Positions 11,267 through 62,701 of a stretch of DNA of 64,000 nt are shown piece by piece (the first letter of the stretch is position 1; every line of letters starts with the position of its first letter). Both the position numbers and the translations under genes were made by a program. The notes below the pieces were generated by a model. The model did not search any database, was not told the DNA's origin, and saw only the letters and a list, made by a program, of their open reading frames with translations. The stretch lies in NCBI GenBank assembly GCA_043228905.1, contig JBHGNT010000008.1, positions 5,580,001 to 5,644,000 of the forward strand, read 5' to 3'. Origin of the DNA: Azolla caroliniana (lineage: Eukaryota > Plantae > Polypodiophyta).

Positions 11267-11289
11267 AGGTTGATGCAAATCGGGCTCAC

Positions 11290-11402: not shown

Positions 11403-11440
<38 letters not shown>

Positions 11441-11918: not shown

Positions 11919-11949
<31 letters not shown>

Positions 11950-24854: not shown

Positions 24855-26099
24855 TGTCATGAAAGGGAATAAGGTAATGTTCTAATAGATGTAGTACGGT
24901 AATAGGGAAGAGAATGTTCTAATAGATGTGGTTAGGTTATATGTATGTTATAATTGTTGTAGTCTTTGGAATCACATAATGTCGTGACTTGAGAGTAGGA
25001 GAGAGAGAAAGAAGATTGGTGTTGAACCAAATGAGTTCGTATGAATTAGTATACACCTATTTATAGGTCCTTATGGAGTATTGTAGAATGTTCTAGAGTA
25101 TTTTAGATATTTTAGATATTTAGGATAATCATGGATTATTCTAGAATGTTCTAGAATGGTTTAGAATACTCGAAATATCTTATAATAATTAATAATATAA
25201 TTACTATAATTATATATTATATATCTTTGTATGTGTTATCATAATGGCTAAGAGGTTGTGGGTTTGTCTCCTTCTAAGCCAAAATGTATGTAATCATGAC
25301 ATTATCCCCCCTTTTCAACGACGAGTTCCACAAGTCGTAAGACAAGACTTCAAACTTCGCTTATGGGGATATTTGGTGTGAAAAGTAGCAACCATAGTAG
25401 AGGTGTTAGCAAGATTCTGTGTAGGCTCCCATGTTCAATCGTTAGGTGTATAATTTAACCAGTCAACCAAATAATATAGTTTGTTGTGGACGATCTTGGA
25501 GTCAAGAACAACAACTTCATATTCGGATCCATATGAAACTTCAACTAGAGGTGGGGAGGGAGATGTAACACGACCCGGAAGAGAGCTTGTTGTGTATGAC
25601 TCCAAAAGTGAAACATGGAAGACCGGGTGAAGATGCATATGAGGAGGTTAGATCAAGTTGAAATGCCACATCATTGATCTTACCAAATATCGCATATGGG
25701 CCAAAACACTGATAATCCAGTTTATAGCAAGTTCTCGTGGTTTTAATGTTACCTTGTAAGAGCCATACTCGATCAACCACTTGAAACTTAGTCGATGAAT
25801 CACATCGATGATGATCGACAACCTTCTTGTGAGAGTTTTGAGCATCACATAAATTGTGCGAAAGGATAACCTGAAATTCTTGGAGTCGGGTGAGTTGATC
25901 TTCAATAGCTGGGTTTGTCGGGAGTTTTGGATGTTCAAGCATTGTCCAACGACGATGGTACCCAATGCTTGCGAAAAATGGTTAATATCCAATAGAAGAA
26001 TGTTCAGAGTTGTTGTAAGCAAATTCTGCCAAATGTAGGAGATTGACCCAATCATCTTGTTGATAGTTGATAAAACAACAAAGATATTGCTCCAATGTC
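24855..26099 (-). mobile_element. Old Tcn1-like chromovirus, 3' part (3' LTR 24855-25301, PPT, chromodomain, integrase C-terminus); host of the nest
   Basis: TGTCA..TGACA LTR; PPT at 25302-25315; YEVVVLDSKIVHNKLYYLVDW chromodomain; frameshifted homologue of the 43735-47292 Pol. Confidence 0.85.
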
Positions 26100-42646: not shown

Positions 42647-43402
42647 TGACGGGAACTACAACGCTCCTTATGCGCAACGCTCGGCCACAACCGAACTTAG
42701 AATCATACACAGAAAACAGTGAAAGAATGCACGACACGAAGAAGAGAAGAGTACACAGGATGTTTACGTGGAAAACCCAAACTAAGGGAAAAACCACGGC
42801 AGCCCACAGGCTGCAAACTATCACTATGTTAGAATGTACAACAGTGAGTTCACGGAGGCAACGACCTCGTGCTCACGATCTTCGCCACAGGCGGCAGTTA
42901 CAATTGAGGCAACGACCTCTTCCTCTCTCTCACTCTCTCTGTACACAGTTACACGCTCTGATCTCGCGCAGACAAGAATAACAACAACAACCTCAAAAGG
43001 TTTGCCCTAAGTCATATTTATACTAATATGACTTTTCGGCTATTTACAAATACAGCCATGATGGACTCTCAGAAACATATTTACGAATATGTCTCTTCAT
43101 TCGGAGAGCACTTCTCACCGGGTCTGCACCATCCGGCTCTCCGTAGCCGGGTACTCCTCATCCGGTTCTCACCGGGTCTGCACCATCCGGCTCTCCAAAG
43201 CTGGGTACTCCTCATCCGGTTCTCACCGGGTCTGCACCATCCGGCTCTCCGTAGCCAGGTACTCCTCATTGTCAGGAACTCTATTAAGGCAGAGAAGGAA
43301 TTAGTACTAAAAGAAGGATTAGTACTATTGTTGGGGAATAGTACTAAGACAGAGAAGGATTAGTACTATGAGAGGTGTCGAACTTTGAGAGAAGGAATGA
43401 GT

Positions 43403-43452
<50 letters not shown>

Positions 43453-43734
43453 TGATGCGAAAGATATATGTATTATATGACGGAAGATATACAACAGTAG
43501 TTAGAAGGCTTAAGACTGGCGTTGAACCGATTTGGTTCGAACTAATGCCTTGCGCCTCCTTTTATAGTGTCTTCAGGAATACTCCTGAAGTTTCTAGAAT
43601 GTTCCAGAGAAATCTGGAATATACATCAATTTCCTAATAAAACCTAAATGAAAATAATATCCTTCAAATTACAACTCATAACCTAATGGTAAAGTCTCGA
43701 CCCGTGTAACAAAAGGTTATGGGTTCGAGTCTAG

Positions 43735-46700
43735 TTATGACACTATCCCCCCTTTAAAACGACGAGTTTCACGAGTCGTTTTGGATTGAGGACCCGGTTT
43801 CTCGGGATATCGTCGATGGAAGTCTTCTAGAAGAGCACGAGCATTGGTCACATTCTCGATCGGTTCCCAAGTACGCTCGCTGGGACTATATCCTAGCCAA
43901 TCGACTAGATAGTAGAGCTTGTTGCGAACAATCTTGGAATCGAGGATGGCAGCGACCTCATACTCAGGTCCATCTTCGAGCTCGATAGGAGGTGGAGGTT
44001 GTATAGTACGTCCTGGGATAGTGCTCTCGTGATAGGGTTCGAGGAGAGAACTATGAAACACCGGGTGTATCCGAAGTTGCGGAGGTAGCTCGAGACGAAA
44101 AGCGACATCATTAATCTTCCCGATAATACGGAAAGGACCTAATCGTCGATAATCCAACTTCTCACATGGGCGAGTAGTCTTGATGTGTCGTCGTAGCAGC
44201 CACACCCGATCTCCAATGTTAAAACTGGATGGAAGTCGATGACGATCTGCGTAGTCCTTGTGTGATTGTTGAGCTTGCTGGAGTTGAGTAGATAAATCCG
44301 CTTGTATCTTGCGTAACCGCTCCAAACGATCCTCCGCGCAAGGATTTGTGGACACTTCTGGGGTTTCAAGGACACACCACCGGGGATGATATCCCGTATA
44401 AGCGTAGAATGGCGTGACTTTAGTCGATGCGTGGATAGCGTTATTATAGGCAAATTCGGCGAACGGAAGAATATCTGCCCAGTCATTCTGATGATAGTTG
44501 AGAAAGCACCGCAGATACTGCTCCAGTGTTTGATTTGTTCGTTCGGCTTGACCGTCGGTTTGTGGGTGGTAGCCGGAGGAGAGGTTACAAGTGACCTTCA
44601 GCATTTTAAAAAGGTGCTTCCAGAATTTTGACACAAACTGGGGTCCACGATCGCTGATGATATTATCAGGGAGTCCATGATGCCGACATACTTCCCGCAT
44701 GACAATTTCGGCGGTGTCTTCACTAGATATTTCTTTAGTACATGGTAAGAAATGAGCCATCTTCGTATATCGATCCACCACTGTGAGAATCGCACTGAAT
44801 CCCTTAGAGACTGGAAGATCTGTAATGAAGTCAAGAGCAATGGATTGCCATGGCTTGCTTGGAATTGGTAATGGTTCTAATAAACCATATGGATGATGTC
44901 TTGGCATTTTCGCTCTGCAGCATGTATCGCAAGTCCGAACAAAATCTTCGACAAATTGTCGCATACGGGGCCACCAGAATGATCGTTGTACTAAATCTAA
45001 TGTTTTAGTACTACCAAAATGTCCTGCTGTATATGTGTCATGGCAGTTTTGTACTACTCGAAGGCGGCAAGAACCATTAGGAACATACAAAAGTTCTTTA
45101 AAGAAGAGTAATCCATCACAGTATTTGAATTGCCGATAATCCGTACCTGGTGATTGTGATTGTGAACATGACGCTCGAGAGGGGTCAATTTGTGCTAGTA
45201 TAGCTTGGGCGAAAGCGTCAGTCTTCAAGTCCTCACGTATAGTATTGGTAATGTCGGAATCCACGGGCATGTCAAAGATCTGTGCTGCTTGCAGTCGTGC
45301 TGGACCCAAGATTACTTGCTTCTGGTTATCGAAAGCTGGCTCACCGGGACGTGGTGTTAGATACGAACGCCGTGATAATGCATCTGCTTTCCCTTGGTGC
45401 TTCCCCGGACGATATGTAATTTTGAAGTCGAAGCGTGTGAGGAAATGGGCCCACCGAGCTTGACGTCGATTCAGTACACGAGCATCTTGAAAGTAGGCAA
45501 GGTTCTTGTGGTCACTGAATACAGTGACCTGATGAGGAGATCCCTCCAAGAAATGCCTCCATTGCATAAAAGAATCAACTATTGCTAATAGCTCTTTATC
45601 ATGAATTTCGTAGTTGATTTCGGCGGCGTCAAACTTACGGGAGTGGAAAGCCACAGGATGTAGCTTCTCGTCGTTACCCTGTTGTGACAGAATGCTCCCC
45701 AATGCGAAATCCGATGCATCAGCTTCGATAATGAATGGTTTTTCCGGATCCACATGACCTAAAATTGGAGCTGATGTAAACACCTTCTTAAGACTCTCGA
45801 AAGCCATGTCCGTCTCTTTAGACCAAATGAATGATTGTCCCTTCCTGGTGAGCTGTGTGAGAGGCAGCACAATTTTTGAGTAATTTTGTATGAACTTCCG
45901 GTAGAAATTTGCAAAGCCTAGGAAGCATTGCACATCCCGCACCGAACGCGGAGTGTGCCATTCTATCACCGTTTTGACCTTGGCTGGGTCCATAGATATG
46001 CCTTCTGAGGAGATGACATAGCCGAGAAACTCCACTTGGTTGCACCCGAAACTACATTTCTCTAACTTTGCATACAGACCATGTTCTCGAAGTCGTTTTA
46101 GTACTAATAGTACATGAGAATCATGTTCTTCTTGGGTCTTTGAATAAACCAGTAGATCATCCAAATAGATGATCAAAAAATCATCCAAGAGGTCTCGAAA
46201 TATATCATTCGCCATGTGCTGGAAGACTGCCGGCGCATTAGTGAGTCCGAACGGCATGACCGTATACTCGAAGTGCCCATATCTGGTGCGAAACGCGGTC
46301 TTCCATTCATCTCCTGGTCGGATCCGTACGAGGTTATAGGCTCCTCGTAAGTCGATCTTCGTGAAGAACCTGGCACCGTTGATCCGTTCTAAAAGACTTG
46401 AGATAAGGGGAAGAGCATACCTATTTCTTACTGTGACCTTATTCAAGCCACGGTAATCTACAACGAGTCGAAGCGAGCCATCTTTTTTCTTGACGAAGAA
46501 AATGGGTGCGCCGGCTGGAGATTTCGAATGCCGAATGAAACCGTTCTCCAAATTCTCCTCTATATAGGCTCGAAGGACTTCTAGCTCGGTTGGTGACAAA
46601 TTGTAGATCGGCCCCCATGGCGGCTCTTTTCCCGGTTGTAAGTCGATGGCGCAGTCGTACGGCCGATGATGAGGAAGTGTGTTGGCTTGTACTTTATCGA

Positions 46701-47331
46701 ACACATCAGCATACTGACGATACTTCTCGGGAAGTTGAACGGTGGACTCCTCTTTGGTGATGCTGGAGGGTTGTACTGATATTGCAAAGAGAAACATTTC
46801 CTCCTTGCGCCCTTCCTCACGCAACTGACGTAGCGAAATGGTTGCAACCTTCTGGGTAGATCCTTGGGTTTGTCGCAACCGGATTTCCCTTGTCCTCCAA
46901 TCTATGTCTGGGTCATGTAACTCGAACCATGGTAATCCTAAAACTATGGGATGTTCTGGAATACTAATAATATTAAATGATACTACACATGTTAAGTTAT
47001 CCAGGACAATATTAACGGGTTCCGACTCTTCTATGATATTACCAGAAGCAATGGGACGACCATCAATGACTACTACTGAGGCTGGACATGGGAGCTTTCT
47101 GAGAGATATCTGATGAGCTCGGGCAAAATTCCTATCCATGAAGCAAGAATTAGCTCCGGAATCTAGAAGGGCTAAGGTATGTACTGGAGGGGTACTTTTA
47201 GTACTAACTGCTACTTGGACTACGAACACATCACTAACTTGCTTAGAGGGAATGGAACCACTAATGGGCTGCACAGATCTAGGGCTGTCCAACCAAACGG
47301 CTCCTATTTTGGCTGGACTTAGTCGTTTAAC
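43735..47331 (-). CDS. pol: Chromovirus Pol (PR-RT-RH-IN-chromodomain), -1 frame relative to gag
   Basis: LLDSGA, YLDD, EADASD, HHCC/DDE integrase, YEVAAILDS...WEP chromodomain; no AUG before PR; stop lies inside the 3' LTR. Confidence 0.93.
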   Translation of the reverse strand, partial: VKRLSPAKIGAVWLDSPRSVQPISGSIPSKQVSDVFVVQVAVSTKSTPPVHTLALLDSGANSCFMDRNFARAHQISLRKLPCPASVVVIDGRPIASGNIIEESEPVNIVLDNLTCVVSFNIISIPEHPIVLGLPWFELHDPDIDWRTREIRLRQTQGSTQKVATISLRQLREEGRKEEMFLFAISVQPSSITKEESTVQLPEKYRQYADVFDKVQANTLPHHRPYDCAIDLQPGKEPPWGPIYNLSPTELEVLRAYIEENLENGFIRHSKSPAGAPIFFVKKKDGSLRLVVDYRGLNKVTVRNRYALPLISSLLERINGARFFTKIDLRGAYNLVRIRPGDEWKTAFRTRYGHFEYTVMPFGLTNAPAVFQHMANDIFRDLLDDFLIIYLDDLLVYSKTQEEHDSHVLLVLKRLREHGLYAKLEKCSFGCNQVEFLGYVISSEGISMDPAKVKTVIEWHTPRSVRDVQCFLGFANFYRKFIQNYSKIVLPLTQLTRKGQSFIWSKETDMAFESLKKVFTSAPILGHVDPEKPFIIEADASDFALGSILSQQGNDEKLHPVAFHSRKFDAAEINYEIHDKELLAIVDSFMQWRHFLEGSPHQVTVFSDHKNLAYFQDARVLNRRQARWAHFLTRFDFKITYRPGKHQGKADALSRRSYLTPRPGEPAFDNQKQVILGPARLQAAQIFDMPVDSDITNTIREDLKTDAFAQAILAQIDPSRASCSQSQSPGTDYRQFKYCDGLLFFKELLYVPNGSCRLRVVQNCHDTYTAGHFGSTKTLDLVQRSFWWPRMRQFVEDFVRTCDTCCRAKMPRHHPYGLLEPLPIPSKPWQSIALDFITDLPVSKGFSAILTVVDRYTKMAHFLPCTKEISSEDTAEIVMREVCRHHGLPDNIISDRGPQFVSKFWKHLFKMLKVTCNLSSGYHPQTDGQAERTNQTLEQYLRCFLNYHQNDWADILPFAEFAYNNAIHASTKVTPFYAYTGYHPRWCVLETPEVSTNPCAEDRLERLRKIQADLSTQLQQAQQSHKDYADRHRLPSSFNIGDRVWLLRRHIKTTRPCEKLDYRRLGPFRIIGKINDVAFRLELPPQLRIHPVFHSSLLEPYHESTIPGRTIQPPPPIELEDGPEYEVAAILDSKIVRNKLYYLVDWLGYSPSERTWEPIENVTNARALLEDFHRRYPEKPGPQSKTTRETRRFKGGIVS

Positions 47332-48488
47332 TCTTCTTCTAATTGGCTAAGGACATCAAATTTGTTTGCGAGATTCGGACTATTAGTACTATTAGGACTA
47401 TTATGACTATGAGGATTATCAGAGATTCCTAGTGACATAGACTCGGGTTTAGTATAGTCAGAACTAACAATGACTTGGTTTACCTGCCTTCTTGGTCTAT
47501 GGGGACAGTTTATCGCGATATGCCCTGGTCCACCGCAATAAAGGCATAATCGGTTTGTTCGGCGTCGTTGCTTTTCCTCCTCCGATAGCGGCCCACGACG
47601 ACGTGTAGTGTCAATTTCCATTGGAGTTGGAGTACTTACTGGAGGCGCATTATGTGACTCCCTTTGAAAAGGTTTCGCTACCATTGAGGCATAGGTAGGC
47701 TCGGATCTTGCCCTCGGCATCTGAAATTGTCGTTCCGAACGTCGCTCGAAGAGGCGGTTGTCACATCTGACCGCTCGACTGATTGCTTCTGTTAATGATT
47801 TTGGCTCTTCAGGGAAAGTCAAGAGTAAATCCTTGACATCGTTGCGTAGACCATAGCGGAACTGCTCCATCAATGCTTGATCATCCCAGGGGATATCGGC
47901 GGCGAGTAGGCGGAAATCTGCAGCATATGCGGAGGCTGGACGGTCACCTTGGCGTAATCGCCGGATTTTGTTGATTGCAGTCCTTATGCTGTCAGTATCT
48001 CCAAAACATGCTTTAAACTCACTTATGAATTCTTCAAAATTATTTAGTACTGGAGATTCCTTTTCTAGTAGCGGAGCGAACCATGCTAATGCTGAGCCAT
48101 TTAACAACGTGCCTACTAAACCCACTCGTGATGCATCGGTGGGATATCGGGACGGATGCATTTGAATAACTAACCGTACCTGGTTAAGAAACCCTCTAAA
48201 CTGCGATCGCGTTCCATCGAACTTCGTGGGAAGGCCAATCTTGGGTTCTTTATGAATCCCTTGTGCTCCGTGCCCTTGTTGTTGCATTGCTACGATGGTT
48301 GCTTCGAGTTGTTGCACGCGTAACGCAAGTTCCCCATGCTGTTGTTGCGTTTGCTGCTTTTCTAAGGAAATTTGCTGAAGATCCCCCAACAAGCGTTGAT
48401 TTTCTTGTTCCAAAGCATGAAACTTCTCTTTCAAGCATTGAAATTCCGAGAAAACGGATTGATACTCTTCAGCGCTAACGGTGGCCAT
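47319..48488 (-). CDS. gag: Chromovirus Gag (PEG10/Rtl1-like capsid, CCHC knuckle)
   Basis: 389-aa ORF; KFDGTRSQFRGFLNQ, LRQG, QFRYGL, PTPMEID, CLYCGGPGHIAINC. Confidence 0.93.
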   Translation of the reverse strand: MATVSAEEYQSVFSEFQCLKEKFHALEQENQRLLGDLQQISLEKQQTQQQHGELALRVQQLEATIVAMQQQGHGAQGIHKEPKIGLPTKFDGTRSQFRGFLNQVRLVIQMHPSRYPTDASRVGLVGTLLNGSALAWFAPLLEKESPVLNNFEEFISEFKACFGDTDSIRTAINKIRRLRQGDRPASAYAADFRLLAADIPWDDQALMEQFRYGLRNDVKDLLLTFPEEPKSLTEAISRAVRCDNRLFERRSERQFQMPRARSEPTYASMVAKPFQRESHNAPPVSTPTPMEIDTTRRRGPLSEEEKQRRRTNRLCLYCGGPGHIAINCPHRPRRQVNQVIVSSDYTKPESMSLGISDNPHSHNSPNSTNSPNLANKFDVLSQLEEELND

Positions 48489-48709
48489 GGGATGAAGGAA
48501 AAGGGAAATAAGAGACTAGTAGGAAAGGAGAGAGACAGAAGGAAGAGGGAGACTAGTAGGAAAAATCGGTTCAAACTGTCAGGAACTCTATTAAGGCAGA
48601 GAAGGAATTAGTACTAAAAGAAGGATTAGTACTATTGTTGGGGAATAGTACTAAGACAGAGAAGGATTAGTACTATGAGAGGTGTCGAACTTTGAGAGAA
48701 GGAATGAGT

Positions 48710-48749
<40 letters not shown>

Positions 48750-51700
48750 TGATGCGAAAGATATATGTATTATATGACGGAAGATATACAACAGTAGTTA
48801 GAAGGCTTAAGACTGGCGTTGAACCGATTTGGTTCGAACTAATGCCTTGCGCCTCCTTTTATAGTGTCTTCAGGAATACTCTTGAAGTTTCTAGAATGTT
48901 CCAGAGAAATCTGGAATATACATCAATTTCCTAATAAAACCTAAATGAAAATAATATCCTTCAAATTACAACTCATAACCTAATGGTAAAGTCTCGACCC
49001 GTGTAACAAAAGGTTATGGGTTCGAGTCTAGTTATGACACTCATCCGGTTCTCACCGGGTCTGCACCATCCGGCCCTCCGTAGCCGGGTACTCCTCATCC
49101 GGTTCTCACCGGGTCTGCACCATCCGGCTCTCCGTAGCCGGGTACTCGTCATACGGTTTATCAACACTGTTCTTCTCCCTTCCCATCCGGAGGGACCTGT
49201 CTCCCAACAAACTCCCCCTTCACTCTGGCATGAGGTGTCTTACTAGTCCGATCCTCTTCCGGCATGCATCCAGCTTGTCGGGTATCAACACTTCAGTCAG
49301 CATATCTGACCCGTTCTCGGCCGTGTGGATCTTCGTCAGTGCGAACTCCTGGTCATCTACTCTTTCCCGGATCCAGTGATACCTTCGTTGGATATGCTTC
49401 GTCCGGAAATGGTAGGCCGCATTCTTAGCAAGGTGGATGGCACTTTGACTGTCGCAATAGAGCCGGTATTCATCTTGTCGGATACCGAGCTCTCCGATGA
49501 AGTCCTTCATCCATAACATTTCCTTGCCGGCTTCCACAGCCGCCAAGTACTCCGCCTCCGTGGTTGACAACGCAACCGTCTTCTGCAGCCTCGACTGCCA
49601 CGAAACAACTCCCCCTGCATATGTCATTACATACCCGGATGTGGACCAGCTGGTATCCACATCAGCCGACATGTCTGAATCGGTGAAACCGTCAAGTTGA
49701 GATTTTCCGGAGCCGAATCGGAGACACATATTTGAAGTGCCCTTCAAATACCGGAGTATCCATTTGACCGCGTTCCAGTGCTCCTTGCCGAGATTGCTCA
49801 TAAACCGGCTCACCACTCTGACTGCGTATCCTATATCCGGTCGGGTACACACCACTGTGTACATCAAGCTCCTGACGGCAGAGGCATATGGAATCTTCAT
49901 CATATCCGCCTTCTCTGCTTTCGTCTTCAGGCTTTGCTTACCGGATAGCTTGCAGTTTGCCGGAAGTGTCGATCCGACCGGTTTCGCATCTGACATGTTG
50001 AACCGGTGAAGCACCTTTGTCACGTACTTCTCTTGTGATAGCCATAATTGCATCACTGACCGATTCCGGATAATATGCATCCCCAGCATCTGTCTTGCCA
50101 GACCCAAGTCTTTCATTGAGAAGGTCCGGTTGAGAGCCTTCTTCAGCATCCGTATTTTGACTTGGTCCCGTCCGACGATCAACATGTCATCCACGTACAG
50201 AAGGAGTATCAGGAAGTCGCCTCCTTCAAACTTCTTCACAAACACGCAGTGATCGGCCTACGTCTTGTGGTACCCTTGATCGGTCATGAAGGAATCGAAC
50301 TTCCGGTACCATTGTCGGGGAGCCTGCTTTAGTCCGTACAGGCTCTTCTTCAGCCGGCATACCAGGTGCTCCTTCCCTTTCTCCACAAATCCCTCCGGTT
50401 GCTGCATGTAGATCTCCTCTTTGAGGTCGCCGTGAAGGAATGCCGTCTTCACGTCCAACTGTTCTACCTCGAGGTCCATGCTTGCCGCTATACTCAGCAC
50501 CGTCCGGATGGAGGTCATCTTTACTACCGGGGCAAATATCTCGTCAAAGTCCACGCCCTTTTTCTGCTGGAAACCCCTTCACCACGATCCTGGCTTTGTA
50601 TCTCGGGGGGTTGCCGGCATCTCCCGGTTTCAACTTGTACACCCACTTGTTTCGGAGTGCCCGCTTTCCTTTCAGCAACTCCACCAATTCGTACGTATGG
50701 TTCTCATGCAGGGAATCCATCTCATCCTGCATGGCATTTAACCATTTGCGGCTGTGGGTGTCATCCTTCGCTTCTTCGAAGCTTTCCGGCTCCCCCTCAT
50801 TGGTCAGCAGAACATGCTCTGCAACCGGAAATCTCCGGGGCACCCTTCTCTCTCTGAGAGGATATCTCCGTCTTCTGGGTTCGGTAACCGGCTCCTCCAT
50901 TTTCTCTTCATCCGAATCTGATTCAGGGTCTTGGCCGGTTCCGGTTTCAGCTTCCTCTACTTCTTCTTCTGCCGGTTCGGTATCCTCACCGTAACCGGCT
51001 GGTTCCTCGAGTGCTAACCGGTCTCTTGCCGGTTGGGTCTGCTCATCGTAGAATTGATCATTACCGGTCGACTCGGAGTTCATTATCTTCTTCTCCGACT
51101 CCCAGTCGGCGAGCGTCTTGTTCTCCATGAAGATAATATCTCGACTCTGGAATACCTTCTTGTCGACCAGGTCCCACACTTGGTAGCCGAACTCATCGGC
51201 GCCGTAACCGAGGAATATGCATGGCCGGGTCTTTGGATCCAACTTTCCTCTCCGGTCCTTAGCTACATGCACGTACGCGAGACACCCGAATACCTTCAGA
51301 TGCCGGTAGGATACTTCCTTACCGGTCCAAACTCTCTGTGGCGTGTCTCCGTCCAAGGGTACTGAGGGTGATCTGTTTATCACATATGTCGCCGTCGACA
51401 GTGCCTCAGCCCAAAACTTCTTGGGTAGTTTTGCATGCGCCAACATACTCCGGACCCTCTCCATTATGGTCCGGTTCATCCTCTCGGCCAGCTCATTTAG
51501 TTCCGGCATCTTCGGCACGGTAAATTCGAGCCGGATTCCCTTCAAGTGACAGTACTCCTCGAACTGCCCCCGGTATTCACCTCCGTTATCTGCTCGAGCC
51601 GCCTTCAGTTTCCGGCCGGTTTCTCTTTCCACTCTCGCGTGGAGCTCTTTGAAGACGGATAACACCTGATCCTTCGTCTTCAACGGTGTGGCCCACAACT

Positions 51701-51753
51701 TCCGGTTGTGGTCATCTATGAATGTCACGAAGTACTGTGATCTTGCATGTGAC

Positions 51754-52170
51754 TTGTAGATGCCGAAATGTCCAGCCATCAGCGTGTCATGACATTGTTG
51801 CAAGACTTGTAGTCGAGAAGGACCATCAGGCACATACAATAGAGTTTGTCGAAAAAGTAAACCATCATGCCAATTGAACTGGTTGTAGTCTTGACGAGGA
51901 TTTTACGATTGTGAGCAAGAAGCATGATGTGGGATAATATGGTTCAAAATGTCTTGCGGGAATTCATCAGTCTTAATATGCTCCCAAATGGAATCAAGAA
52001 GACTTGAATCTCTAGGTGTTTCTATAACATGAAATGCCATTAGTTGTAGACGATCAAGACCCTAGAGGATTTGCTTCTGACTGTCGAATGTAGACTCTCC
52101 TGGTTGAAGTTCCATATACGAACGTCGAGATAAAGCGTCTGCTTTTCCTTGTTGCATCCTAGGACGGGAT
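51754..52170 (-). mobile_element. Old chromovirus pol fragment (RH-IN junction)
   Basis: QQGKADALSRRSY and LYVPDGPSRLQVLQQCHDTLMAGHFG; homologous to 45000-45420. Confidence 0.8.
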
Positions 52171-52481
52171 AAATACAAAGTCGTCGACGTTGTATTTTAC
52201 TCTGTACACCATCTGTAGCCGATCGGCTTGACACCTTTGGGGGTTCAACCAAGTCCCAAGCTTCCTTTTCGACCAGTGCATACATTTCTTCCTCCATGGC
52301 CGATTTCCAATTGACGTCTTGTGTCACCTTCGTGTAGCTCTTTGGCTCATGTATCTCCACCACTTTGTTCATGTATGCATAATGATGCACCATGTACTCA
52401 TTATACCCGTACTTGATAACAAGATTCTTCTGTTGAGTTGACCGGCGCAACCTTGCTGAGAATCGACCGGCCACAACCGGT
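52171..52481 (-). mobile_element. Fragment of an element A-family Copia (pre-RT region)
   Basis: RLRRSTQQKNLVIKYGYNEYMVHHYAYM...WKSAMEEEM matches 29550-29720. Confidence 0.7.
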
Positions 52482-52727
52482 TGATGTTCGTGCGTATGTG
52501 GGTGCAAAGATCGAGAATGACAAAGTCTAGAGTACAGAGACAACAAAAGAACCCGAAGTACAGAGACACAAGATTTAACGTGGAAAACTTGGATCGGGAA
52601 AAACCACTAGGGCTCACAAACCCCAAGAAACAAATCACTATATATGGAGAGATGAATACAAGGAGACTCGGAGGCAACGACCTCAAGCTCGTCTTCATCT
52701 AACAAACGGCGGTAGAGTTACAACTCA

Positions 52728-52765
<38 letters not shown>

Positions 52766-53280
52766 GTTACAGTAGCAACAACCAACAGTAACTTGTTTAA
52801 CAAATAATCAACAACCCTTAACTACTTGCCCTAAGTGTATTTATACTAATACAACATTCAGGGCTATTTACAAATATATCCCACTAAGGTCACATATTGA
52901 GGCTATTTACAATTATGGCCTCCGAATCAGCTTTGACCGAATCGGCTAATAACTGAGTCGATTTTCGGCCTTGACTAAGTTTATCTATAAGCTCCATTCC
53001 ATTCAACTCGTGCTCTTTCCATCTAGAGGGACTTGTTTTCCCAACAAAATCCCCCTTCACTCCGGCATGGCGTGCTTTGTTAATCCGACCCTTTGTTAGC
53101 ACGCACTCAACTTCTCTACCGACAATACCTTTGTTAGCATATCAGATCTGTTTTCCACAATGTGGATCTTCATCAGAGCAAACTCCTTTTCTTCTACTCG
53201 CTCTTGGAGCCAATGGTATCTCCTCTGGATGTGCTTGGTCCTCGAGTGGTAGATAACATTCTTCGCAAGTTGGATGTTTT
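52482..53280 (-). mobile_element. Copia element E 3' end (LTR 52482-53046, PPT, RNase H end)
   Basis: TG..CA LTR related to the D LTR; aaatccccctt PPT; IQLAKNVIYHSRTKHIQRRYHW. Confidence 0.78.
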
Positions 53281-54375
53281 CGTATATGCACACCTAAGCT
53301 AACCGGAGAAACACACACACACACACACACATAGATATATACATGATGCCCGTGGTGACGTCGGTGTTGCTCGGCAAGCGAGAGGGGGCTTGCATCCCAG
53401 GATTGGTCGGGAAGCACCTGCGCGTGTTCGCGCGACGGGATCCTCGTGTAGGGCACCTCTCTGGTAGAACCGCCTCCTATCGCCAAGGAGTACTCGGGCT
53501 TGCCGGCTCGAATCGGTCTTGCACGCCGAGGAGTGAAACCTGCCACCGAACTTCCGAACGCATGGGCTCACCACCACGATAGAAATCGACAATCACACAC
53601 GCACACAGACACACCGGGACGTGGCGTGCTGAGAACCTGTAGAAGGCGAAGACAAGCCACGTGTTGCCTGTTGCAACCGAACACCCCCAACTACGCATGC
53701 ACACTGACGAAACCCTAGTAGAGATAAAGTGTTTAAGAACAGAGACATAGATAGAGATAGAGACAAAACTAGAACTTATACACATAAGTTTATTAACAAA
53801 ATGGAACCCAAATACCAAAAATAAAATGGGAACCCCTTTACAAGGGATGCTCCCTTCCTTTTATAGAACAAGGAGAGGGATGTGTAACAATGTGGGATAA
53901 ATCCCGATTTACATGGGATTCTCTGTCCTGACTTAACTCCTACTCCGTGCCATAAAGGCGCCCCTATCACCTACACTATTTGTACAAGGGTGATTGCACA
54001 TGCTCCACCTCGCTGATTCTTCTGATATTCCCCGGTTTCTCACCATGGCCCGGAATCTTCACGACACCGTGAGTCTGGAACCAATCCGAAGGCCTTGGTT
54101 ATAGAAGATGACTCTAACCGGGCAAGAGGCCGGAATTGGAGTCCCCAGAACTAGGACAAATCAAGGACGAGGTAGAAATCAAGGGGGAGGCTGTTTTGGA
54201 ATAGAGTTTTCTATGTTCTTCTCTCTCCGTCTCTCCCCCGTACATTGTGTTGATTAAGCTTTCCATTAAACGTTCCTTATCTTCCTTGTCTCTTCTTTTT
54301 TATCTGTTGTTACCCGGTTGTGTCTCTTAAGCTTCCGCATGGAAGTCGGGGCACTTCAAGAAGAATTGCTAACAC
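53281..54375. mobile_element. Unresolved LTR-like fragments
   Basis: Minus-strand TATA near 53860; PPT-like aagggggaggc followed by TG at 54192; no TSD resolved. Confidence 0.35.
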
Positions 54376-56260
54376 TTCTGGAAAGCCAAAGGGGGAGCCG
54401 ACATTCCGGAACCGAAGAAGATTTCAGAAAGGAGAGGAATGCCGGAGATTGCAACAAGTGAAGAAGAACTATTGCCGATCACCGAGGAGAGTGAGCTACA
54501 TCTTGTTAGCAATGAAATGACGTGGGTGGTTGACTCTGGAGCGTTTTTGCATTTGACCCCCCACCGGAAATGCTTCTCATCTTACAAAGCTGGAGATCAC
54601 GGTTGTGTCTGGAAGGGGAATGACAGTGCATGCCGAATTGTCGGCTTATGAGACGTGTTACTGACAACGTCAACTAGGTGCAAGTTGTTGTTGAAAGATG
54701 TCTGACACGTTCCGGAGGTTCGGTTGAACTTGATATCAACTAATCGGGTGGATGATGAAGGCTATACGGGTAGCATCCGGAATGGAGTCATGAAATTCAG
54801 AAAAGGAATCCTGATCGTGGCCCAAGCCCAGAAGATCAACACATTGTACCTAATGCATGCCCGGATATGCCGGGAAGAGGTGAACGTGGTATCTGACACT
54901 GCCAGTGAGTTGTGACACAAGAGGTTGTGTCACATGAGCCAGAAAGGGATGAGAAGACTTGCCGAAGATAACCTCATTCCGGAGGTGAAAGACGCGCAAC
55001 TTGAGAAGTGTACCGATTGGTTGGCCGGAAAGTAGAATCGAACCTCTTTTCGGTCGAAACCACCGTCGAGAATGCACCGTTGGAACTTCTGCATACCGAT
55101 GTATGCCAAGTGGACATGAAGTCACATGCCGGATCATAGTACGTCGTGATGTTCATAGATGACCACAACCGGAAGTTGTGGGTCTCACCGCTGAAGACTA
55201 AGGACCAGGTATTATCCGTCTTCAAGGAATTCCAATTGAGAGTGGAAAAGGGAAACCCTAAACCCTAAACCAGCTCGAATTTACCGTGCCGAAGACACCG
55301 GTGCTGAATGGATTAGCCGAAAGGATGAACTGGACTGTGATGGAGAGAGTTCGGAGCATGTTTGCACATGCTAAGTTGTCCAAGACGTTTTGGGCCGACA
55401 TGCTGATGACGATGACCTATGTGATAAACAGATCACCCTCAGCGCCCTTGGACGAAGACACACCACAGAGAGTATGGACCAGTAAAGATGCATCTTATTA
55501 GCATCTGAAGGTGTTCGATTGTCTCGCCTACGTGCATGTAGCAAAGGACAAGAGAAAGAAATTGGATCCGAAGTCCCGACCATGCATATTCCTCAGATGC
55601 GACGATGATGAGTTTGGTTACCAAGTGTTGGACTTGTTCGACAAGGTTTTCCGTAGTTGAGACATAATCTTCATGGAAGATAAGACCATTGCCGATTGGG
55701 AGTTGGCGAAGAAGATAGTTGACTCTAGGTTGACTGAGAGAAATCGTTTGGAAAATTCTAGGACGCATCCGGTCGGAAGCTGGATGTCAGTCGAAGACCA
55801 TGATGAACCGGCCGGATTCGGATGGGGAACCGAACTGACCGAAGAAGAAGAATTGGACACTGGAAACCGGTCCAGACCCTGAATCGGATTTGGATGAAGA
55901 ATAGATGGAGGAGCCAGTGGTCGGAAACCAAGGACTGAGATATCCCCTTAGAGAGAGAAAGCCCCCCCAAAGATTTTTGGATGCTGAGCACGTTTTACTA
56001 ACCGACGAGGGGGAGCCAAAAAGCTTCGAAGAAGCAAAGAAAGACACCCACAGCCGCATGTGGTTGAGTGCCATGTAGGATGAGATGGATTCCTTGCATG
56101 AGAACCACACATATGAACTGATGGAGTGGCCGAACGGAAAGAGAGCGCTCCAGAACAAGTGGGTGTACAAGCTGAAACCGGGAGATGCTGGAAATCCACT
56201 GAGATAGAAAGCCCAGATCGTGGTGAAGGGCTTCGAGCAGAAGAAAGGAGTTGACTTCTT
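54376..56260 (+). mobile_element. Copia fragment F (D-family; PR, IN, start of RT), degenerate
   Basis: WVVDSGA, NGLAERMN, YKLKPGDAGNP, ...KKGVDF, then an abrupt strand switch. Confidence 0.82.
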
Positions 56261-59200
56261 GGAGAAGGTCCGGTTCAAGGCCTTCTTCAGCATCCCGATT
56301 TTGGTTCAGTCTAGTCCGACAATCAACATGTCATCCACCTACAGAAGGAGTATCAGGAAATCTCCTCTTTTGAATTTTTTCACAAACACGCAGTGATCAA
56401 CTTGTGTCTTGTGGTACCCTTGATTTGTCATGAAGGAGTTGAAATTCTAGTACCATTGATGGGGGGCTTGCTTCAATCCGTATAAGCTCTTCTTGCCGGC
56501 ATACCAAGTGCTCCTTCCCTTTCCTCTCAAATCCTTCCGGTTGATGCATGTGGATCTCTTCTTCGAGGTCGCCATGTAGGAATGTCGTCTTGACATCTAG
56601 TTGCTCTATCTCGAGGTCCATGCTTGTCACTATGCTCAATACCGTCTAGATGGATGTCATCTTTACTACCGAGGCAAAGATCTCGTCGAAACCCACTCCT
56701 TTCTTCTGCTGGAAACCCTTCACCATGATCAGGGCCTTGTACCTTGGTGGATTTCCGGTGTCTCCCGGTTTTAGCTTGTACACCCACTTGTTCCGGAGTG
56801 CCCTCTTTTCTTTCAGCAACTCCGTCAGTTCGTATGTGTGGTTCTCATGCAGGGAATCCATCTCTTCCTGCATGGCACTCAACCACTTGCGACTGTGGGT
56901 GTCTTTCTTTGCTTCTTCGAAGCTTTCCAGCTCCCCCTCATCGGTCAAAAATACATGCTCTACATCCGGAAATCTCCGGTTCCTCCATTTGTTCCTCATC
57001 CTCATCCGATTCGGGATCTTGTCCAGTTTCGGTGACTTCTTCTTCTTCGGTCAGTTCGGTTTCTTGTCTGAATCCGCCCGGTTTGTCGAGTGTCATTCAG
57101 CTTCTGGCTAACATCCGGTTTTCAACCGGGTAAGTCCTTGTGCCCTCAAGTCGGTTTTCATTGGATGATCCAGAGTTCATCACCTTCTTCTCCGATTCCC
57201 TTTCGGCAATGGTCCTGTCTTCCATGAAGACTATGTCCCGACTCTAGAACACCTTCTTCTCGACCAGATCCCACAGTCGGTAACCAAACTCATCATTGCC
57301 GTATCCAAGAAATATGCATGGCTTGGTCTTCGGATCCAACTTTCCTCTCTTGTCCTTTGTGACATGCACGTATGCGAGACAACCAAACACCTTCAGATGC
57401 CGGTAAGACATGTCTGTACTGGTCCATACTCTCTGTGGTGTGTCTCCATCCAAGGGTGTTGAGGGTGATCTGTTTATCACATAGGTCGCCATCATCAGCG
57501 CCTCAGCCCAAAACGTCTTGGGTAACTTAGCATGTGCTAGCATGCTTCGGACTCTCTCTATTATGGTCCGGTTCATCCGTTCGGCCAACCTGTTTAGTTC
57601 CGGCGTCTTCGACACGGTGAATTCGAGCCGGATTCCCTTCGACCGACAGTATTCCTCGAACTGCCTCCGGTATTCTCCTCCGTTATCTGCTCGAACCGCC
57701 TTCAACTTCCGGCCGGTTTCTCTTTCCACTCTCACATGGAGCTCCTTGAAGATAGACAACACCTGATCCTTCGTCTTTAATGGTGAGACCCATAGCTTCT
57801 GGTTGTGCTCATCTATGAACGTCACGAAGTATTGCGATCCGGCATGTGACTTCGTGTCCAGTTGACACACATCGGTATGCACCAACTCTAGTGGTTCATT
57901 CCATCTCATTGGTAGTCTTGACCGGAAGGAGGTTCTGTTTTGTTTGCTGGCCAAGCCGTCGGTGCACTTCTCAAGATGCACATCTTTCACCTCCGGAACG
58001 AGGTTATCTTCGGCAAGTCTTCTCATCCCCTTCTGGCTCATATGGCACAGTCTCTTGTGCCACAGTTCACCGGCCATGTCAGATGCTATGTTCACTTCTT
58101 CCCGACATATCTGGGCATGCATCGAATATAGCGTGTTGATCTTCCAGGCTCGAGCCACAATCAAGCTTCCTTTGTAGAATTTCATTACTTCGTTCTGGAT
58201 GCTACCCCTGTAGCCTTCATCATCTAGCCGATCGACTGATATCAGGTTCAACTGAACCTCCGGAACGTGTCAGAATTCTTTTAATAACAATTTGCATCCA
58301 GTTAATGTCGTCAACAACACATCTCCTATGTCGACAATTCGGCATGTACCTTCATTCCCCATCCAGACACAACCATGATCTCTGGCTATGTAGGATGAGA
58401 AGCATTTATGGTCCGGTGTCAAATGGAATGATGCTCTGGAATTGACAACCCACTTTGTCTCGTCGCCGACAAGGTTTAACTCATTCTTGTCGGTAATGAG
58501 CATCAATTCTTCTTCACTTGTCGCGATCGCCGACGTTCCTCTTCGATCCAGACCTCTCTGGTCCGAACTCTTCTTCAGATCGGTGGTGTCGGCCCCTTTC
58601 TCTTTTCAAAAATGCTGACAGTTCTTCAGAAAGTGCCCCGGCTTCCCACAGTAAAAGCAAGTGGGCCTTCCCCTTGACTTCAACCTCGTCCCCGATTTGT
58701 CTCGATTTTGGGGACTCCGATACTGGCCTCTTCCCTGGTTGTGGTCATCTTCTGTAACCAAGGCCTTCGGATTGGTTCCGGACTCCCGATCCTTTCAGCG
58801 AGCTTCTTCATCTAGCAAGCTTGATTTTACCCTTGCGAGGGACAACTGCTTTCCTTCCGTCCTAGCGTTGCCCAACGTGACAACTAGCATCTCCCAAGTA
58901 TCCGGGAGGGAACCGAGCAGGAGCAATGCGAGTACCTCATCCGCATGAGGTACTTCCAACGAGGTGGCTTGGTGTATTAGCCCCTGGAAGGCAACCAAAG
59001 ATCTTTAACCACTAGCATGTCCCTCATCTTCAACTTCCACACTGAGTAGTTGGAGTCGGTGAGCTTGAACATGCCGTCAAACAACTCTTCCATTTCCTGT
59101 ATTGTTCGCTTTGATACCAGTTTGATAGGAAATAGTGCGGAATATTCCTCGGCCGTAATGGAGTCTTGAATCACTTCGATGAGAATCAAACACAGAAATG

Positions 59201-59610
59201 GGAAGTAGGGAGTGAACGCACATACACACACAAACAACGATAGAGAACACATGATGTTTACGTGGAAAACCCTAAATGGGAAAAAACCGTGGGAGCCCAC
59301 ACACTCCAAACTATCACTATATGAGAAAGGTACAATCAGAGACTCGGATGCAACGACCTCGAGCTCTGTATCTTCGCCAGCCGACGGGTACAACAGAAAC
59401 TAGTTATGTATCTCTCTCTCACTCACTCACTCTATGTATACAATAATATACAACAACACCATATTTAGTGATTGCCCTAAGTCATATTTATACTTATATG
59501 ACTTGAGCGTTATTTACAAATATAGCCTCGATAGGCTCACCATGAAACATATTTACACATGTTCTTGGATCCGGTTTGCACTGGATCCGGTTTCCAGGTC
59601 GAGTCCGGAA

Positions 59611-62514
59611 TGTTAGGAAACAGGTCCCTCCGGATGGGAAGTGAGAAGAACCGTGTTGATGAGCAACTCGGCCGAGGCCAAAACCGGAAATCGTGGAGAT
59701 AGCCAACACGGAAGGCTAAGTTTGTAAATAGTCTGAACATGCCCCCGTGGGCTAAACTTGTAAACAGTCGAAAGGTTACATTAGTATATAAGTACTTAGG
59801 GAATCATGTTAGATGTGTGCGTGATTTGTAAAGTTACTGTTGACGAGGTTGTTATCTCTGTAATTGTGAGAGTGAACAAGTGGGAGTGAAAGCGTGTGAG
59901 CTCCATAGCCGTCTATTGGCGAAGCAGGATCTCGAGGTCGTTACCTCTGAGATCTCTGATTGTATTGCTTTATCTCATAGTGTTCTGTTTCAGAGTTTGT
60001 GGACTCCACGTGGTTTTTCCCAGTTCGGGTTTCCACGTTAAAATCTGTGTCATTCTCAGTTTCTGTATTCTGTTTTTCCTTTCTATTAGATGGACTATTA
60101 TTCTACAAACGTACAACTGGTTGTGGCCGGCAATGATTTTAACTTCAAACTGGTATCAGAGCGAGCAACACAGAAAATGGAAGGAGACGGGAGCGGTTTT
60201 CCAAGTATGATGGTTCTAAATTCACAGAACTATGCGGACTGGAAGATTAAGATGGAAGACCTTCTCATTGTAAAAGCCTTGTATGAGCCAATCGACATAT
60301 CGGAAATACCAAAGGGGGTATTGGAGTCAGACTGGAAGCTTCTGAATAGGAAAGCCGTGGCCACTATCCGACAATGTGTCGACGTAAGTGTCCTTCAGCA
60401 CGTGGCGAACGACACGAATACCCACGAGATGTGGTAGAAGCTGTTGGGTCTCTATGAGAGGAAGAATGTGCTCAACAGAACCTCATTGATGAGGAAAATA
60501 GTAAACCTGAAATACAGAGACGGTGAGAGCATGGTTGAACACGTAAGCACATTTATGGGGTATGTAAATCAACTTGCAGCGATCAAGTTCCCCTTGGATT
60601 ATGCAATGCAGGCAATCATGCTGATGTGTACGTTGTCGTAGTGTAATTCGCACACTACGTGAAAAATTACATTTTTGGTCTCTCCGGATAGGACATGGAG
60701 TACCCGGTGAGAACCGGAAGAAGGAATTGGTAAGGAGACCCGGCAAGAGCCGGATGAAGAAGGCCGGTGAGAGTCGGTGAGAAACGGACAAAGAGATCGG
60801 TAAGGAGGTCCTGGTAAGAACCGGACAAAGAAAACTAGCAAGCACCGGATGAAGCAGAATCGGAAAGAGCCGGATGAAGAAGGCTGGTGAGAGTCTCTCA
60901 CCGGATGAAGAGACATATTTGTAAATAGAAGAAAGTATAAATATATATATATTACATGCATAGGGCAAGATTCGAACCTTGCACCTCCATGTTAATAATG
61001 TTAAGCCTTATCATTATATTAGAGTATTATGAATTTTAAAGTTATATTAAACTTTATCCCATGTAAAATTTCTAGACATACATGGTACAAAAAGTTATTC
61101 ATGCATAGACACTTGAGTTAAAAGAAAAGATGAGATAGAAAGCTAATCATGGACATGCAATGTGCATGAAAACTAAAGATAGGAAAAAGCATGATGCTTG
61201 CTTGTGATAAACTTAGACTCTTCCAACACTATATAAGGAAGAGAGAAAGATGTATAGAGTTGTTGATTATTTTTACAAGGGTTGATTAATATAATATAAT
61301 CGTGGGATCCACGAGTTTGCTAACTATTTTCCTCTCTTAATTTGAGTACTCACTAATACACTATACTCGTGGGATTCACGAGTTTTTCATATCTTTCTTT
61401 CCTACAATATATTTCATATTCTTAATTGCCTTAGAATTTTCTTTCCTCCTAGTCCAAAACCCCAGTGGTTCCCACCCGATTCACGCAACGATCCGGAGCC
61501 GCAAGGCACGACAACGTTGCTGAAAAGCTGGGAGAACTTGGTGGTTACTCTCAGCACCTCCTGCCAAGAAGAGAACTTGTCTTTGTAGACGGTGAAGACA
61601 AGCATCTTGAACGAGGAGGTGCGTCGGAAGAACAAGGAACCGATCCCCGACTCAAAAGACGATGAGTTCGGCTACCGAGTGTGGGACTCGGTCGACCAAA
61701 AAGTATTCTGGAGTCGAGATATTATCTTCATGGAGGACAAGACGATTGTCGACTGGGAGTTAGAGAAGAAGATAATGAACCCCGAGTCGACCAGTAAGGA
61801 AAAGTTTCGATTTGATGAAATGCAGTTCCAACCAGCAAGAAGCCGGTTAGCATTCGATGAACCGTCCGGTGACGGTGTGGAGACAAAACTGGCCGAAGAA
61901 GAAGGAATAGGTGAAACCGAAACCGGACAAGACCCCAAATCGGATTCGGATGAAGAGAAAATGGAGGAGCCGGTTACCGAAGCCCAAGGACACAGATATC
62001 CTCTCAGAGAGAGAAGGCCCCCCCGTAGATTTCCGGATCTAGGCCGAAACCGGAAATCGTGGAGATAGCCAACACGGAAGGCTAAGTTTGTAAATAGTCT
62101 GAACATGCCCCCGTGGGCTAAACTTGTAAACAGTCGAAAGGTTACATTAGTATATAAGTACTTAGAGCAATCATGTTAGATGTGTGCGTGATTTGTAAAG
62201 TTACTGTTGATGAGGTTGTTGCCCCTATAACTATGAGAGTGAACGAGTGGGAGTGAAAGCATGTGAGCTCCATAGCCGCCTGTTGGCGAAGTAGGATCTC
62301 GAGGTCGTTGCCTCTGAGATCTCTGATTGTATTGCTTTGTCTCATAGTGTTCTGTTTCGGAGTTTGTGGACTCCACGTGGTTTTTCCCAGTTCGGGTTTC
62401 CACGTTAAAATCTGTGTCATTCTCAGTTTCTGTATTATGTTTTTCCTTTCCATTAGATTGACTATTATTCCGCACACGTACAACCGGTTGTGGACGGCAA
62501 CGATTTTAACTTCA
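59611..62514 (+). mobile_element. Internally deleted Copia element H, inserted in the LTR of G
   Basis: TSD cggaa at 59606-59610 and 62515-62519; 5' LTR 59611-60147; PBS 60151; gag from ATG 60177; deletions join gag to the post-IN region (~61655) and then to a 5'-truncated 3' LTR (~62040). Confidence 0.87.
60634..61513 (+). mobile_element. Solo-LTR-like insertion in H gag, with an embedded D-family LTR fragment
   Basis: Ends tgtcgt / acgaca; 4-bp TSD acgt (60630-60633, 61514-61517); gag resumes TLLKSWENLVV; TATA near 61231. Confidence 0.68.
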
Positions 62515-62590
62515 CGGAACCCTTCCGAATCCGGTTCCTTCATCCGGCTCGTCCGGTTCTCATCCGGATCCCATCCGGAGGGACCGAATT

Positions 62591-62641
62591 TGTAAAAACG
62601 AAGGTGCGGAAGCTTTAGACAACCGGCTTAGCCGGATAGCA

Positions 62642-62701
<60 letters not shown>

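What the first reader, a model, noticed from the sequence alone, without database searches (positions are those of the whole stretch)
48563..48863. tRNA-independent self-priming site in the chromovirus
Seen: no TGG-type tRNA PBS follows the 5' LTR. Instead TTGAACCGATTT (48574-48563, element sense) is the exact 12-nt complement of AAATCGGTTCAA inside the LTR (48830-48819), which starts 33 nt downstream of TATAAAA (48863-48857), about where the transcript should start. The old relative's LTR has a similar motif (gttgaaccaaat, ~25021) at similar distance from its TATA. Established: S. pombe Tf1 primes by folding its RNA 5' end onto the PBS. Inference: the same mechanism operates here.
Basis: partly seen in the sequence, partly recalled or inferred. 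Interest (0 to 1): 0.72.

Follow-up and report, generated by a model that had tools for sequence, protein, structure and literature searches.

The report
Self-priming plant retrotransposon with fossil misprimings
This young plant jumping gene has no tRNA docking site: the 12 bases after its left repeat match the predicted start of its own RNA, so it likely primes its own copying as yeast Tf1 does (already predicted for this group), and miscopied insertions elsewhere in the genome likely record where that RNA primer is cut off.

Summary
Observation confirmed. The element is an intact 5,770-bp chromovirus (minus strand, 49039-43270) of the Tf1/sushi group that fits the plant Tcn1 clade. Its PBS (48574-48563) is the exact 12-nt complement of LTR bases 33 nt behind the TATA box. 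Five primer/PBS pairs in this genome and five in metagenome relatives keep the pairing with different letters. Self-priming is predicted in print for 83% of 1,500 Tcn1 elements (Neumann 2019), and this scan noted it before in two moss genomes, so the mechanism is not new. Added here: 46 of 1,806 PBS-bearing copies continue from the PBS into antisense U3, 43 of them over a long stretch; 13 of 40 distinct ones have exact 5-bp target duplications; in 10 of 31 the captured R segment begins at nt 11-19 and in none at nt 2-10, as expected if the RNA template had lost its first 12 nt. The 2-5 bases behind the PBS are hypervariable in young copies. Against: no RNA start data; some tRNA T-arms match 10 of 12 PBS bases; no named Tcn1 sequence was in the tree. 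New member of a known kind.

The parts
48577..49039 (-). 5' LTR, 463 bp, TG...CA
   Evidence: differs from the 3' LTR by one substitution and 10 nt of a microsatellite over the aligned part
48857..48863 (-). TATA box
   Evidence: same spacing (32-33 nt) to the primer in families A, A', B, C, D
48831..48839 (-). U3 arm just upstream of the predicted start, weakly complementary to the primer (strong in families C and D)
   Evidence: family A not beyond shuffles (18% of 500 reach it); C, C2, C3, D and L185 at 0-0.2%
48819..48830 (-). predicted self-primer, first 12 nt of R
   Evidence: exact complement of the PBS; start of transcription inferred
48811..48817 (-). R strand of the predicted second duplex, pairs with the U5 end and GT spacer (48580-48575)
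   Evidence: predicted fold
48563..48574 (-). primer-binding site, 12 nt, 2 nt behind the LTR
   Evidence: unchanged in 30 of 30 young copies
48560..48562 (-). hypervariable bases directly behind the PBS
   Evidence: 10 haplotypes among 29 copies, background median 1, maximum 5 per 6-column window
47319..48488 (-). gag ORF (Retrotrans_gag, Ty3_capsid, DUF4939, zinc knuckle)
   Evidence: nearest named Atlas cluster PEG10
47287..47331 (-). gag-pol overlap with a slippery-like heptamer (47331-47325) and an 11-bp hairpin (47318-47287): likely -1 frameshift signal
   Evidence: function inferred
43735..47346 (-). pol ORF: PR, RT, RNase H, integrase, SH3, chromodomain
43743..43755 (-). polypurine tract
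43270..43742 (-). 3' LTR, 473 bp
49040..49044 (-). 5-bp target site duplication ATGAG (other copy 43265-43269)
25021..25065 (-). TATA and R-side primer motif in the 3' LTR of an old relative (family B)

Best explanation
This Tf1/sushi-group (Tcn1-type) chromovirus likely primes reverse transcription with the first 12 nt of its own RNA instead of a tRNA. Shown: the PBS is the exact complement of a 12-mer 33 nt behind the TATA box, and related families keep the pairing with other letters. Inferred: transcription starts at 48830; the 5' 12 nt fold onto the PBS (predicted pairing probability about 0.9) with a second short R/U5 duplex; the RNA is cut after nt 12 (by RNase H in Tf1, from the literature); the 12-mer primes minus strong-stop DNA, which ends at about R nt 13; the primer is copied into the plus-strand PBS, with errors at its 5' end that give the hypervariable bases behind the PBS. 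Because R(1-12) is the complement of the PBS, a PBS end can also anneal to R (or a U3-bearing R copy can prime on the PBS); the products read U3-primer-antisense U5/R, have two valid LTR ends and are integrated. They make up about 2.5-4% of PBS-bearing copies.
For: Geometry and chance. Covariation: A AAATCGGTTCAA/TTGAACCGATTT (30 copies), A' AAATTGGTTCAA/TTGAACCAATTT (12), B ATTCGGTTCAA/TTGAACCGAAT (6), C AAGGTGAACAA/TTGTTCACCTT (24), D AAGGAGATCAA/TTGATCTCCTT (8); 81 of 108 R/downstream pairs scored were exact complements (the 27 others include one-mismatch old copies and 3' or solo LTRs caught by a loose pattern). Family C is 65% identical to A in RT. Metagenome relatives: 9 of 42 loci with at least 2 kb upstream show TATA-spaced primer/PBS pairs, five new sequences plus family C's, against 0 of 42 reversed controls. 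Folding: mean primer:PBS pair probability 0.91-0.94 in 7 of 7 own-genome leaders. Footprints: 46 of 1,806 (reversed control 0) and 17 of 404 PBS copies run on into antisense U3; 13 of 40 distinct long A/A' cases have an exact TSD and 4 more match 4 of 5; 4 distinct family-C-group cases have an exact TSD; R segment starts at nt 11-19 in 10 of 31, at nt 2-10 in 0 of 31, p = 2.6e-7 against a uniform start (window width chosen after looking). Perfect U3-R-U5-PBS-antisense-U3 palindromes with direct TSDs exist in both groups (L332, L416). [quoted passage not shown]
Against: No RNA 5' end, cleavage product or cDNA was observed. T-arms of tRNA-Ala(tgc) and one tRNA-Gln(ttg) copy match 10 of 12 bases of the family A PBS, tRNA-Thr and a tRNA-Cys copy 10 of 12 of A'; the tRNA set was partial (50 distinct sequences, 15 anticodon types). 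The third duplex of the Tf1 'pretzel' was not seen in the predicted folds of families A-D. 2 of 6 metagenome leaders did not form the duplex in the predicted ensemble (0.08 and 0.00). 21 of 31 R starts lie further downstream, and in the C group one copy (L375) aligned from nt 3 against a poor reference. 23 of 40 distinct fold-back copies have no TSD match found.
Confidence: 0.93

Rival explanations
1. A tRNA fragment ending at T-loop A58 primes, and the LTR match is secondary.
For: 10-nt exact matches of the A and A' PBS to T-arms ending 19-20 nt from the tRNA 3' end; the A/B primer plus the next bases reads like a B-box.
Against: The LTR match is longer (12 nt) and conservation in young copies stops exactly at nt 12; the C and D PBS have no tRNA match above 5 nt in the partial set yet match their own R exactly; the R starts in fold-back copies pile up behind nt 10, not at nt 1.
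Confidence: 0.03
2. The primer is element RNA but comes from the R copy at the 3' end of the transcript or from the second packaged RNA, not from the same molecule's 5' end.
For: The fold-back copies read U3-primer-antisense U5, which is what a U3-bearing R copy would give if it primed on the PBS; three copies carry PBS plus 5-8 nt of antisense U3 and then normal leader. The idea was raised for another lineage in earlier finding e1-7857552.
Against: In normal copies the error hot spot lies exactly behind the complement of nt 1, and the primer starts at a pyrimidine|A 32-33 nt behind the TATA in every own-genome family, which points to a 5'-terminal primer. cis versus trans cannot be told from these data.
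Confidence: 0.12
3. Self-priming holds, but the fold-back copies arose after integration by host replication switching at the 12-bp inverted repeat, so they say nothing on the cleavage site.
For: An inversion between primer and PBS in an integrated element would keep the TSD; 23 of 40 cases have no TSD found; several copies are nested or multiply rearranged.
Against: Palindromes L332 and L416 have the same 5-mer in direct orientation at two U3 ends; inverted copies stop exactly at the LTR terminus and jump to internal sequence instead of running into host flank (L333, L324); a 3' LTR is followed by a PBS in L359, L364, L426; none of the 40 is the simple primer-to-PBS inversion followed by PBS and leader.
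Confidence: 0.15
4. The complementarity is chance or a relic without function.
For: Short word; no expression data.
Against: p about 1e-4 to 1e-6; kept through replacement of the letters in ten primer types; very young intact copies exist (LTRs 99-100% alike).
Confidence: 0.01

Closest known systems
Plant Tcn1 clade of chromoviruses (REXdb; Neumann et al. 2019, PMC6317226; Novikova et al. 2010, PMC2864245)
   Same: Chromodomain, 5-bp TSD, size inside 5466-9444 bp, overlapping gag and pol ORFs, no tRNA PBS, self-priming predicted for 83% of 1,500 elements.
   Different: In the passages read the published evidence is a BLAST complement of at least 10 bp; covariation, the R/U5 duplex, the post-PBS hot spot and fold-back insertions were not in them. 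SM-Tcn1 was reported without evidence for either kind of priming. No named Tcn1 sequence was available for the tree.
Tf1/Tf2 of S. pombe; Tj1, Tosmo1-3, Tcry1; Tf1/sushi group
   Same: 5' end of RNA complementary to a PBS next to the LTR; cut predicted right behind the primer; second duplex between R and U5.
   Different: Primer 12 nt (11 in Tf1 and in families B-D); two ORFs with a likely -1 frameshift (Tf1 is listed among the single-ORF or stop-codon fission-yeast elements); third duplex not evident; mechanism is proven by experiment only for Tf1.
Ty1/copia TAR lineage (Houba, Osr-1)
   Same: Self-priming predicted in plants.
   Different: Other superfamily; no chromodomain.

Membership tests
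Ty3/gypsy chromovirus | PR-RT-RH-INT order with C-terminal chromodomain | tested here: met
   (Chromo E 2.2e-14 at 1129-1179)
Tf1/sushi group | RT-RH closer to fungal and vertebrate chromoviruses than to seed-plant chromoviruses | tested here: met
   named fungal and vertebrate hits mostly 50-64% identical, seed-plant hits 43-52%; (quick tree): seed-plant and Closterium rows form a separate clade (99), the element sits among unnamed environmental rows next to fungal rows with weak deep support; Gag nearest named cluster PEG10
Tf1/sushi group | PBS complementary to the RNA 5' end, no tRNA PBS | tested here: met
Tf1/sushi group | Transcription start at the first base of the primer | not testable with these tools
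   only contigs were available; indirect support from TATA spacing and the post-PBS hot spot
Tf1/sushi group | Three-duplex 'pretzel' leader | tested here: inconclusive
   central duplex and R/U5 duplex predicted; third duplex not seen in families A-D
Tf1/sushi group | Cleavage of the RNA right behind the primer by RT/RNase H | tested here: inconclusive
   indirect only: R starts at nt 11-19 in 10 of 31 fold-back copies, none at 2-10; the enzyme was not tested
Plant Tcn1 clade | Groups with named Tcn1 elements in an RT-RH-INT tree | not tested
   no named Tcn1 or PpatensLTR sequence came from any call
Plant Tcn1 clade | 5-bp TSD, 5.5-9.4 kb, overlapping gag and pol, CHD chromodomain | tested here: met
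   TSD ATGAG, 5,770 bp, ORFs overlap at 47319-47346 against the table row
Plant Tcn1 clade | Host is a moss or club-moss | not tested
   host has a KNOX gene, so a plant; the KNOX search gave only two unnamed hits
tRNA-primed plant chromoviruses (Tekay, Reina, CRM, Galadriel) | PBS complementary to a mature tRNA 3' end (starts with TGG) | tested here: not met

The most novel reading that the evidence does not exclude
Self-priming carries a built-in error path: since R(1-12) complements the PBS, 2.5-4% of integrated copies are mis-primed or mis-transferred products (inverted-leader elements and 600-700 bp palindromic mini-insertions with TSDs). Their junctions are a fossil map of the primer cleavage site and show that the element's own leader is copied at the PBS, giving in-genome evidence for Tf1-type priming in a plant without any RNA experiment; a U3 arm that pairs with the primer (families C, D) may be a counter-measure that hides the 3' R copy.
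Probability: 0.7. Interest if true: 0.55.

Novelty: new member of a known kind. Interest (0 to 1): 0.38.

Why it matters
Self-priming has been shown by experiment for Tf1 and only predicted for plant Tcn1 elements. Covarying pairs and the fold-back insertions turn that prediction into something testable from genome sequence alone: any lineage suspected of self-priming can be screened for 'PBS followed by antisense U3' and for where the captured R segment starts. The same path seeds short palindromes and inverted LTR pieces in the host genome. The basic mechanism is not new.

Tried and rejected
RNA evidence: no RNA holder listed; three runs laid were contigs only and give no start site; one contig of run X3 (depth 3.5) showed the PBS-into-antisense-U3 join, which served only as the lead. 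Idea that the U3 arm suppresses fold-back: the group with the strong arm shows no lower rate (17 of 404 against 46 of 1,806; different patterns, so a rough comparison), not supported. Idea that a C behind the PBS is a copy of the cap: C follows the PBS in most families, but the leader is pyrimidine-rich and family A has T in 21 of 29 copies; inconclusive. B-box or tRNA origin of the primer: fits A and B only. Host lineage through the KNOX exon: two unnamed hits. Tree is the quick version, the careful search did not finish, and it has no named Tcn1 row. Primary Tf1 papers (Levin 1995; Lin and Levin 1997, 1998; Atwood-Moore 2006; Esnault and Levin 2015) are not held. The family C part crashed and was rerun. 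Rows dropped before the R-start count: of 46 junctions, 3 with only a short extension, 3 duplicates, 7 with the whole R (6 with U3 upstream, 1 with a duplicated piece) and 2 without an R-U5 piece, leaving 31.

Full report
1. Observation. The 5' LTR (49039-48577, minus strand) ends in TGACA; GT follows, then TTGAACCGATTT, the exact complement of 48830-48819, which begins 33 nt behind TATAAAA at a C|A step. No TGG lies in the 16 nt behind the LTR. Chance is about 1.7e-4 for a match anywhere in the LTR and 2.6e-6 in the window behind the TATA. The old relative's motif at 25021-25032 is also 33 nt from its TATA, but it lies in a 3' LTR and has no PBS behind it.

2. The element. It is 5,770 bp long, has a 5-bp TSD (ATGAG), LTRs that differ by one substitution and a microsatellite length, an open gag and an open pol that overlap by 28 nt, and a C-terminal chromodomain. 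It sits inside the LTR of a Copia element. Named relatives of the RT-RH region are fungal and vertebrate elements at mostly 50-64% identity and seed-plant elements at 43-52%; the nearest hits (59-89%) are unnamed environmental proteins. A quick tree of 45 rows puts the seed-plant and Closterium rows in their own clade and the element among environmental rows beside fungal ones, with weak deep support. Gag is nearest to PEG10 among named Atlas clusters. This places it in the Tf1/sushi group; its anatomy fits the plant Tcn1 clade, but no named Tcn1 row was in the tree. The host is a plant (KNOX domain); its lineage was not determined.

3. Covariation. The genome holds 1,806 exact copies of the LTR-end plus A/A' PBS word and 404 of the family C word. 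Five primer/PBS pairs occur: A (12 nt), A' (one compensatory change), B (11 nt; the old relative's family), C and D (11 nt, middle letters replaced). Of 108 R/downstream pairs scored in the fetched loci, 81 were exact complements; the rest are mostly single mismatches in old copies or 3'/solo LTRs caught by the loose pattern. Among 79 metagenome loci, 42 had at least 2 kb upstream of RT; 9 show a TATA-spaced primer/PBS pair (five new sequences and one equal to family C) against 0 in reversed controls. Kin are not independent, but the letters are replaced wholesale while pairing, spacing to the TATA (31-35 nt) and an A at position 1 are kept.

4. Structure. From the predicted start to 40 nt behind the PBS, the primer:PBS pairs have mean probability 0.91-0.94 in 7 of 7 own-genome leaders and 0.62-0.94 in 4 of 6 metagenome leaders; 2 of 6 fail. 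A second duplex joins R nt 13-27 to the U5 end in families A, A' and C and in L185, where both sides differ from family C; in B and D it is seen only as a possible duplex. The third duplex of the Tf1 'pretzel' (described in a passage of bioRxiv 10.1101/2022.12.06.519325) was not evident.

5. Footprint of the primer's 5' end. In 29 young copies the 120 nt before the PBS and the PBS carry one deviation in all, while the 2-5 nt directly behind the PBS show 10 haplotypes (background median 1, maximum 5 per 6-column window). This is where plus strong-stop DNA would end after copying a 12-nt primer that begins at 48830. Inference: errors or untemplated bases at the strand transfer. Three further copies carry PBS plus 5-8 nt of antisense U3 and then normal leader, as from a slightly earlier start or a brief fold-back.

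6. Footprint of the cut. A contig joined U5-PBS to antisense U3. The own genome has 46 such junctions in A/A' (reversed control 0) and 17 in the C group, 2.5% and 4.2% of PBS-bearing copies. Of the 46, 43 continue over a long stretch of U3, mostly to the LTR terminus; 40 are distinct. Read in element sense they are: U3, primer, antisense U5 and R, a jump into internal sequence, and often a normal 3' LTR. Thirteen of 40 have an exact 5-bp TSD at both ends, 4 more match 4 of 5, 23 none found. In the C group 4 distinct cases of 17 junctions have an exact TSD; only a family C reference was used, so older C2/C3 copies stayed unresolved. L332 and L416 are pure U3-R-U5-PBS-antisense-U3 palindromes with direct TSDs; the two arms of L332 differ at 4 of 180 bases, so it is not a read chimera. 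Where the R-U5 piece begins inside R-U5 (31 cases), 10 begin at nt 11-19, 6 at 25-34, 15 further on and none at 2-10; p = 2.6e-7 for the first class against a uniform start (alignment edges are uncertain by 1-3 nt and the window width was set after looking). A tRNA-primed strong-stop would end at nt 1; a template cut behind a 12-nt primer ends at nt 13. In the C group several starts fall at 15-25, with poorer references and one alignment from nt 3. Two routes give the same sequence and are not told apart: a strand that has copied strong-stop DNA and its attached primer anneals by its PBS end to R of plus-strand DNA and copies U3; or a U3-bearing R copy primes on the PBS of a cut RNA. A host replication origin is the rival; it explains neither the palindromes with direct TSDs nor the stops at the LTR terminus.

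7. tRNA control. No mature 3' end fits. In a partial set (79 genes, 50 distinct sequences, 15 anticodon types) T-arms match 10 of 12 bases of the A PBS (Ala-tgc, one Gln-ttg copy) and of the A' PBS (Thr-ggt, one Cys copy), 9 of 11 of B, and at most 5 of C and D. The resemblance comes from the GGTTCAA word and does not extend to the other families.

8. U3 arm. Families C, C2, C3, D and L185 have a 10-13-bp hairpin between the bases just upstream of the start and the primer (0-0.2% of 500 shuffles reach it); A' is borderline (5-7%), A, B and three metagenome types have none. It could exist only in the 3' LTR RNA or in DNA. The idea that it hides the 3' R copy is untested, and fold-back rates do not support it.

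9. What is known. Neumann et al. 2019 (PMC6317226; passages; one supplement row) state that most Tcn1 elements lack a tRNA PBS and are predicted to self-prime (83% of 1,500). Novikova et al. 2010 (PMC2864245; passages) found no evidence of either priming mode for SM-Tcn1. [quoted passage not shown] That the Tf1 primer is not removed I know only from a title in a reference list. Searches (listings only) showed no paper on fold-back insertions of self-priming elements; the primary Tf1 papers are not held and may describe such cDNAs. Earlier notes of this scan report the same layout in two moss genomes and miscopied footprints in other lineages (unchecked).

10. Verdict. Real feature, interpretation supported (0.93), new member of a known kind. 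The added value is the genomic footprint of both primer ends. Interest 0.38.

Noticed in passing
window 47331-47287 (-): Slippery-like heptamer at the gag-pol overlap followed by an 11-bp hairpin: likely -1 ribosomal frameshift signal.
   Followed up: partly
window 43103-43269 and 49040-49206: The chromovirus is inserted in a 54-bp tandem repeat inside the 3' LTR of a Copia element whose RT lies at 49220-50257.
   Followed up: partly
window 30224-35494 (+): Young Copia element (LTRs 98% alike) with gag and pol in separate open frames.
   Followed up: no
window 11257-12111 (-): Exon with a KNOX1 domain; part of a host homeobox gene.
   Followed up: partly
L144, L306, L075, L277, L185, just upstream of the predicted start: U3 carries an inverted copy of the primer that covaries with it in families C and D (10-13-bp hairpin), absent or weak in A and B; function unknown.
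   Followed up: partly
window 48825-48815 (-): Primer plus following bases in families A and B match the RNA polymerase III B-box / tRNA T-loop consensus (consensus recalled); not shared by C and D.
   Followed up: partly
L332 (G000:C4:19.61 Mb), L416 (G000:C2:3.115 Mb): Palindromic mini-insertions of about 660 and 620 bp with 5-bp TSDs that would look like inverted-repeat elements (MITE-like) to an annotator.
   Followed up: partly
L328, L345, L346: The same fold-back insertion, nested in another copy's gag, occurs three times (once on C2, twice in tandem on C12).
   Followed up: no
L091, L108, L109, L409: Host tRNA genes lie in tandem arrays of one type (Lys/Asn, Ile, Arg, Cys).
   Followed up: no
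window 50000-64000: Several decayed Copia copies in both orientations form long imperfect inverted repeats.
   Followed up: no
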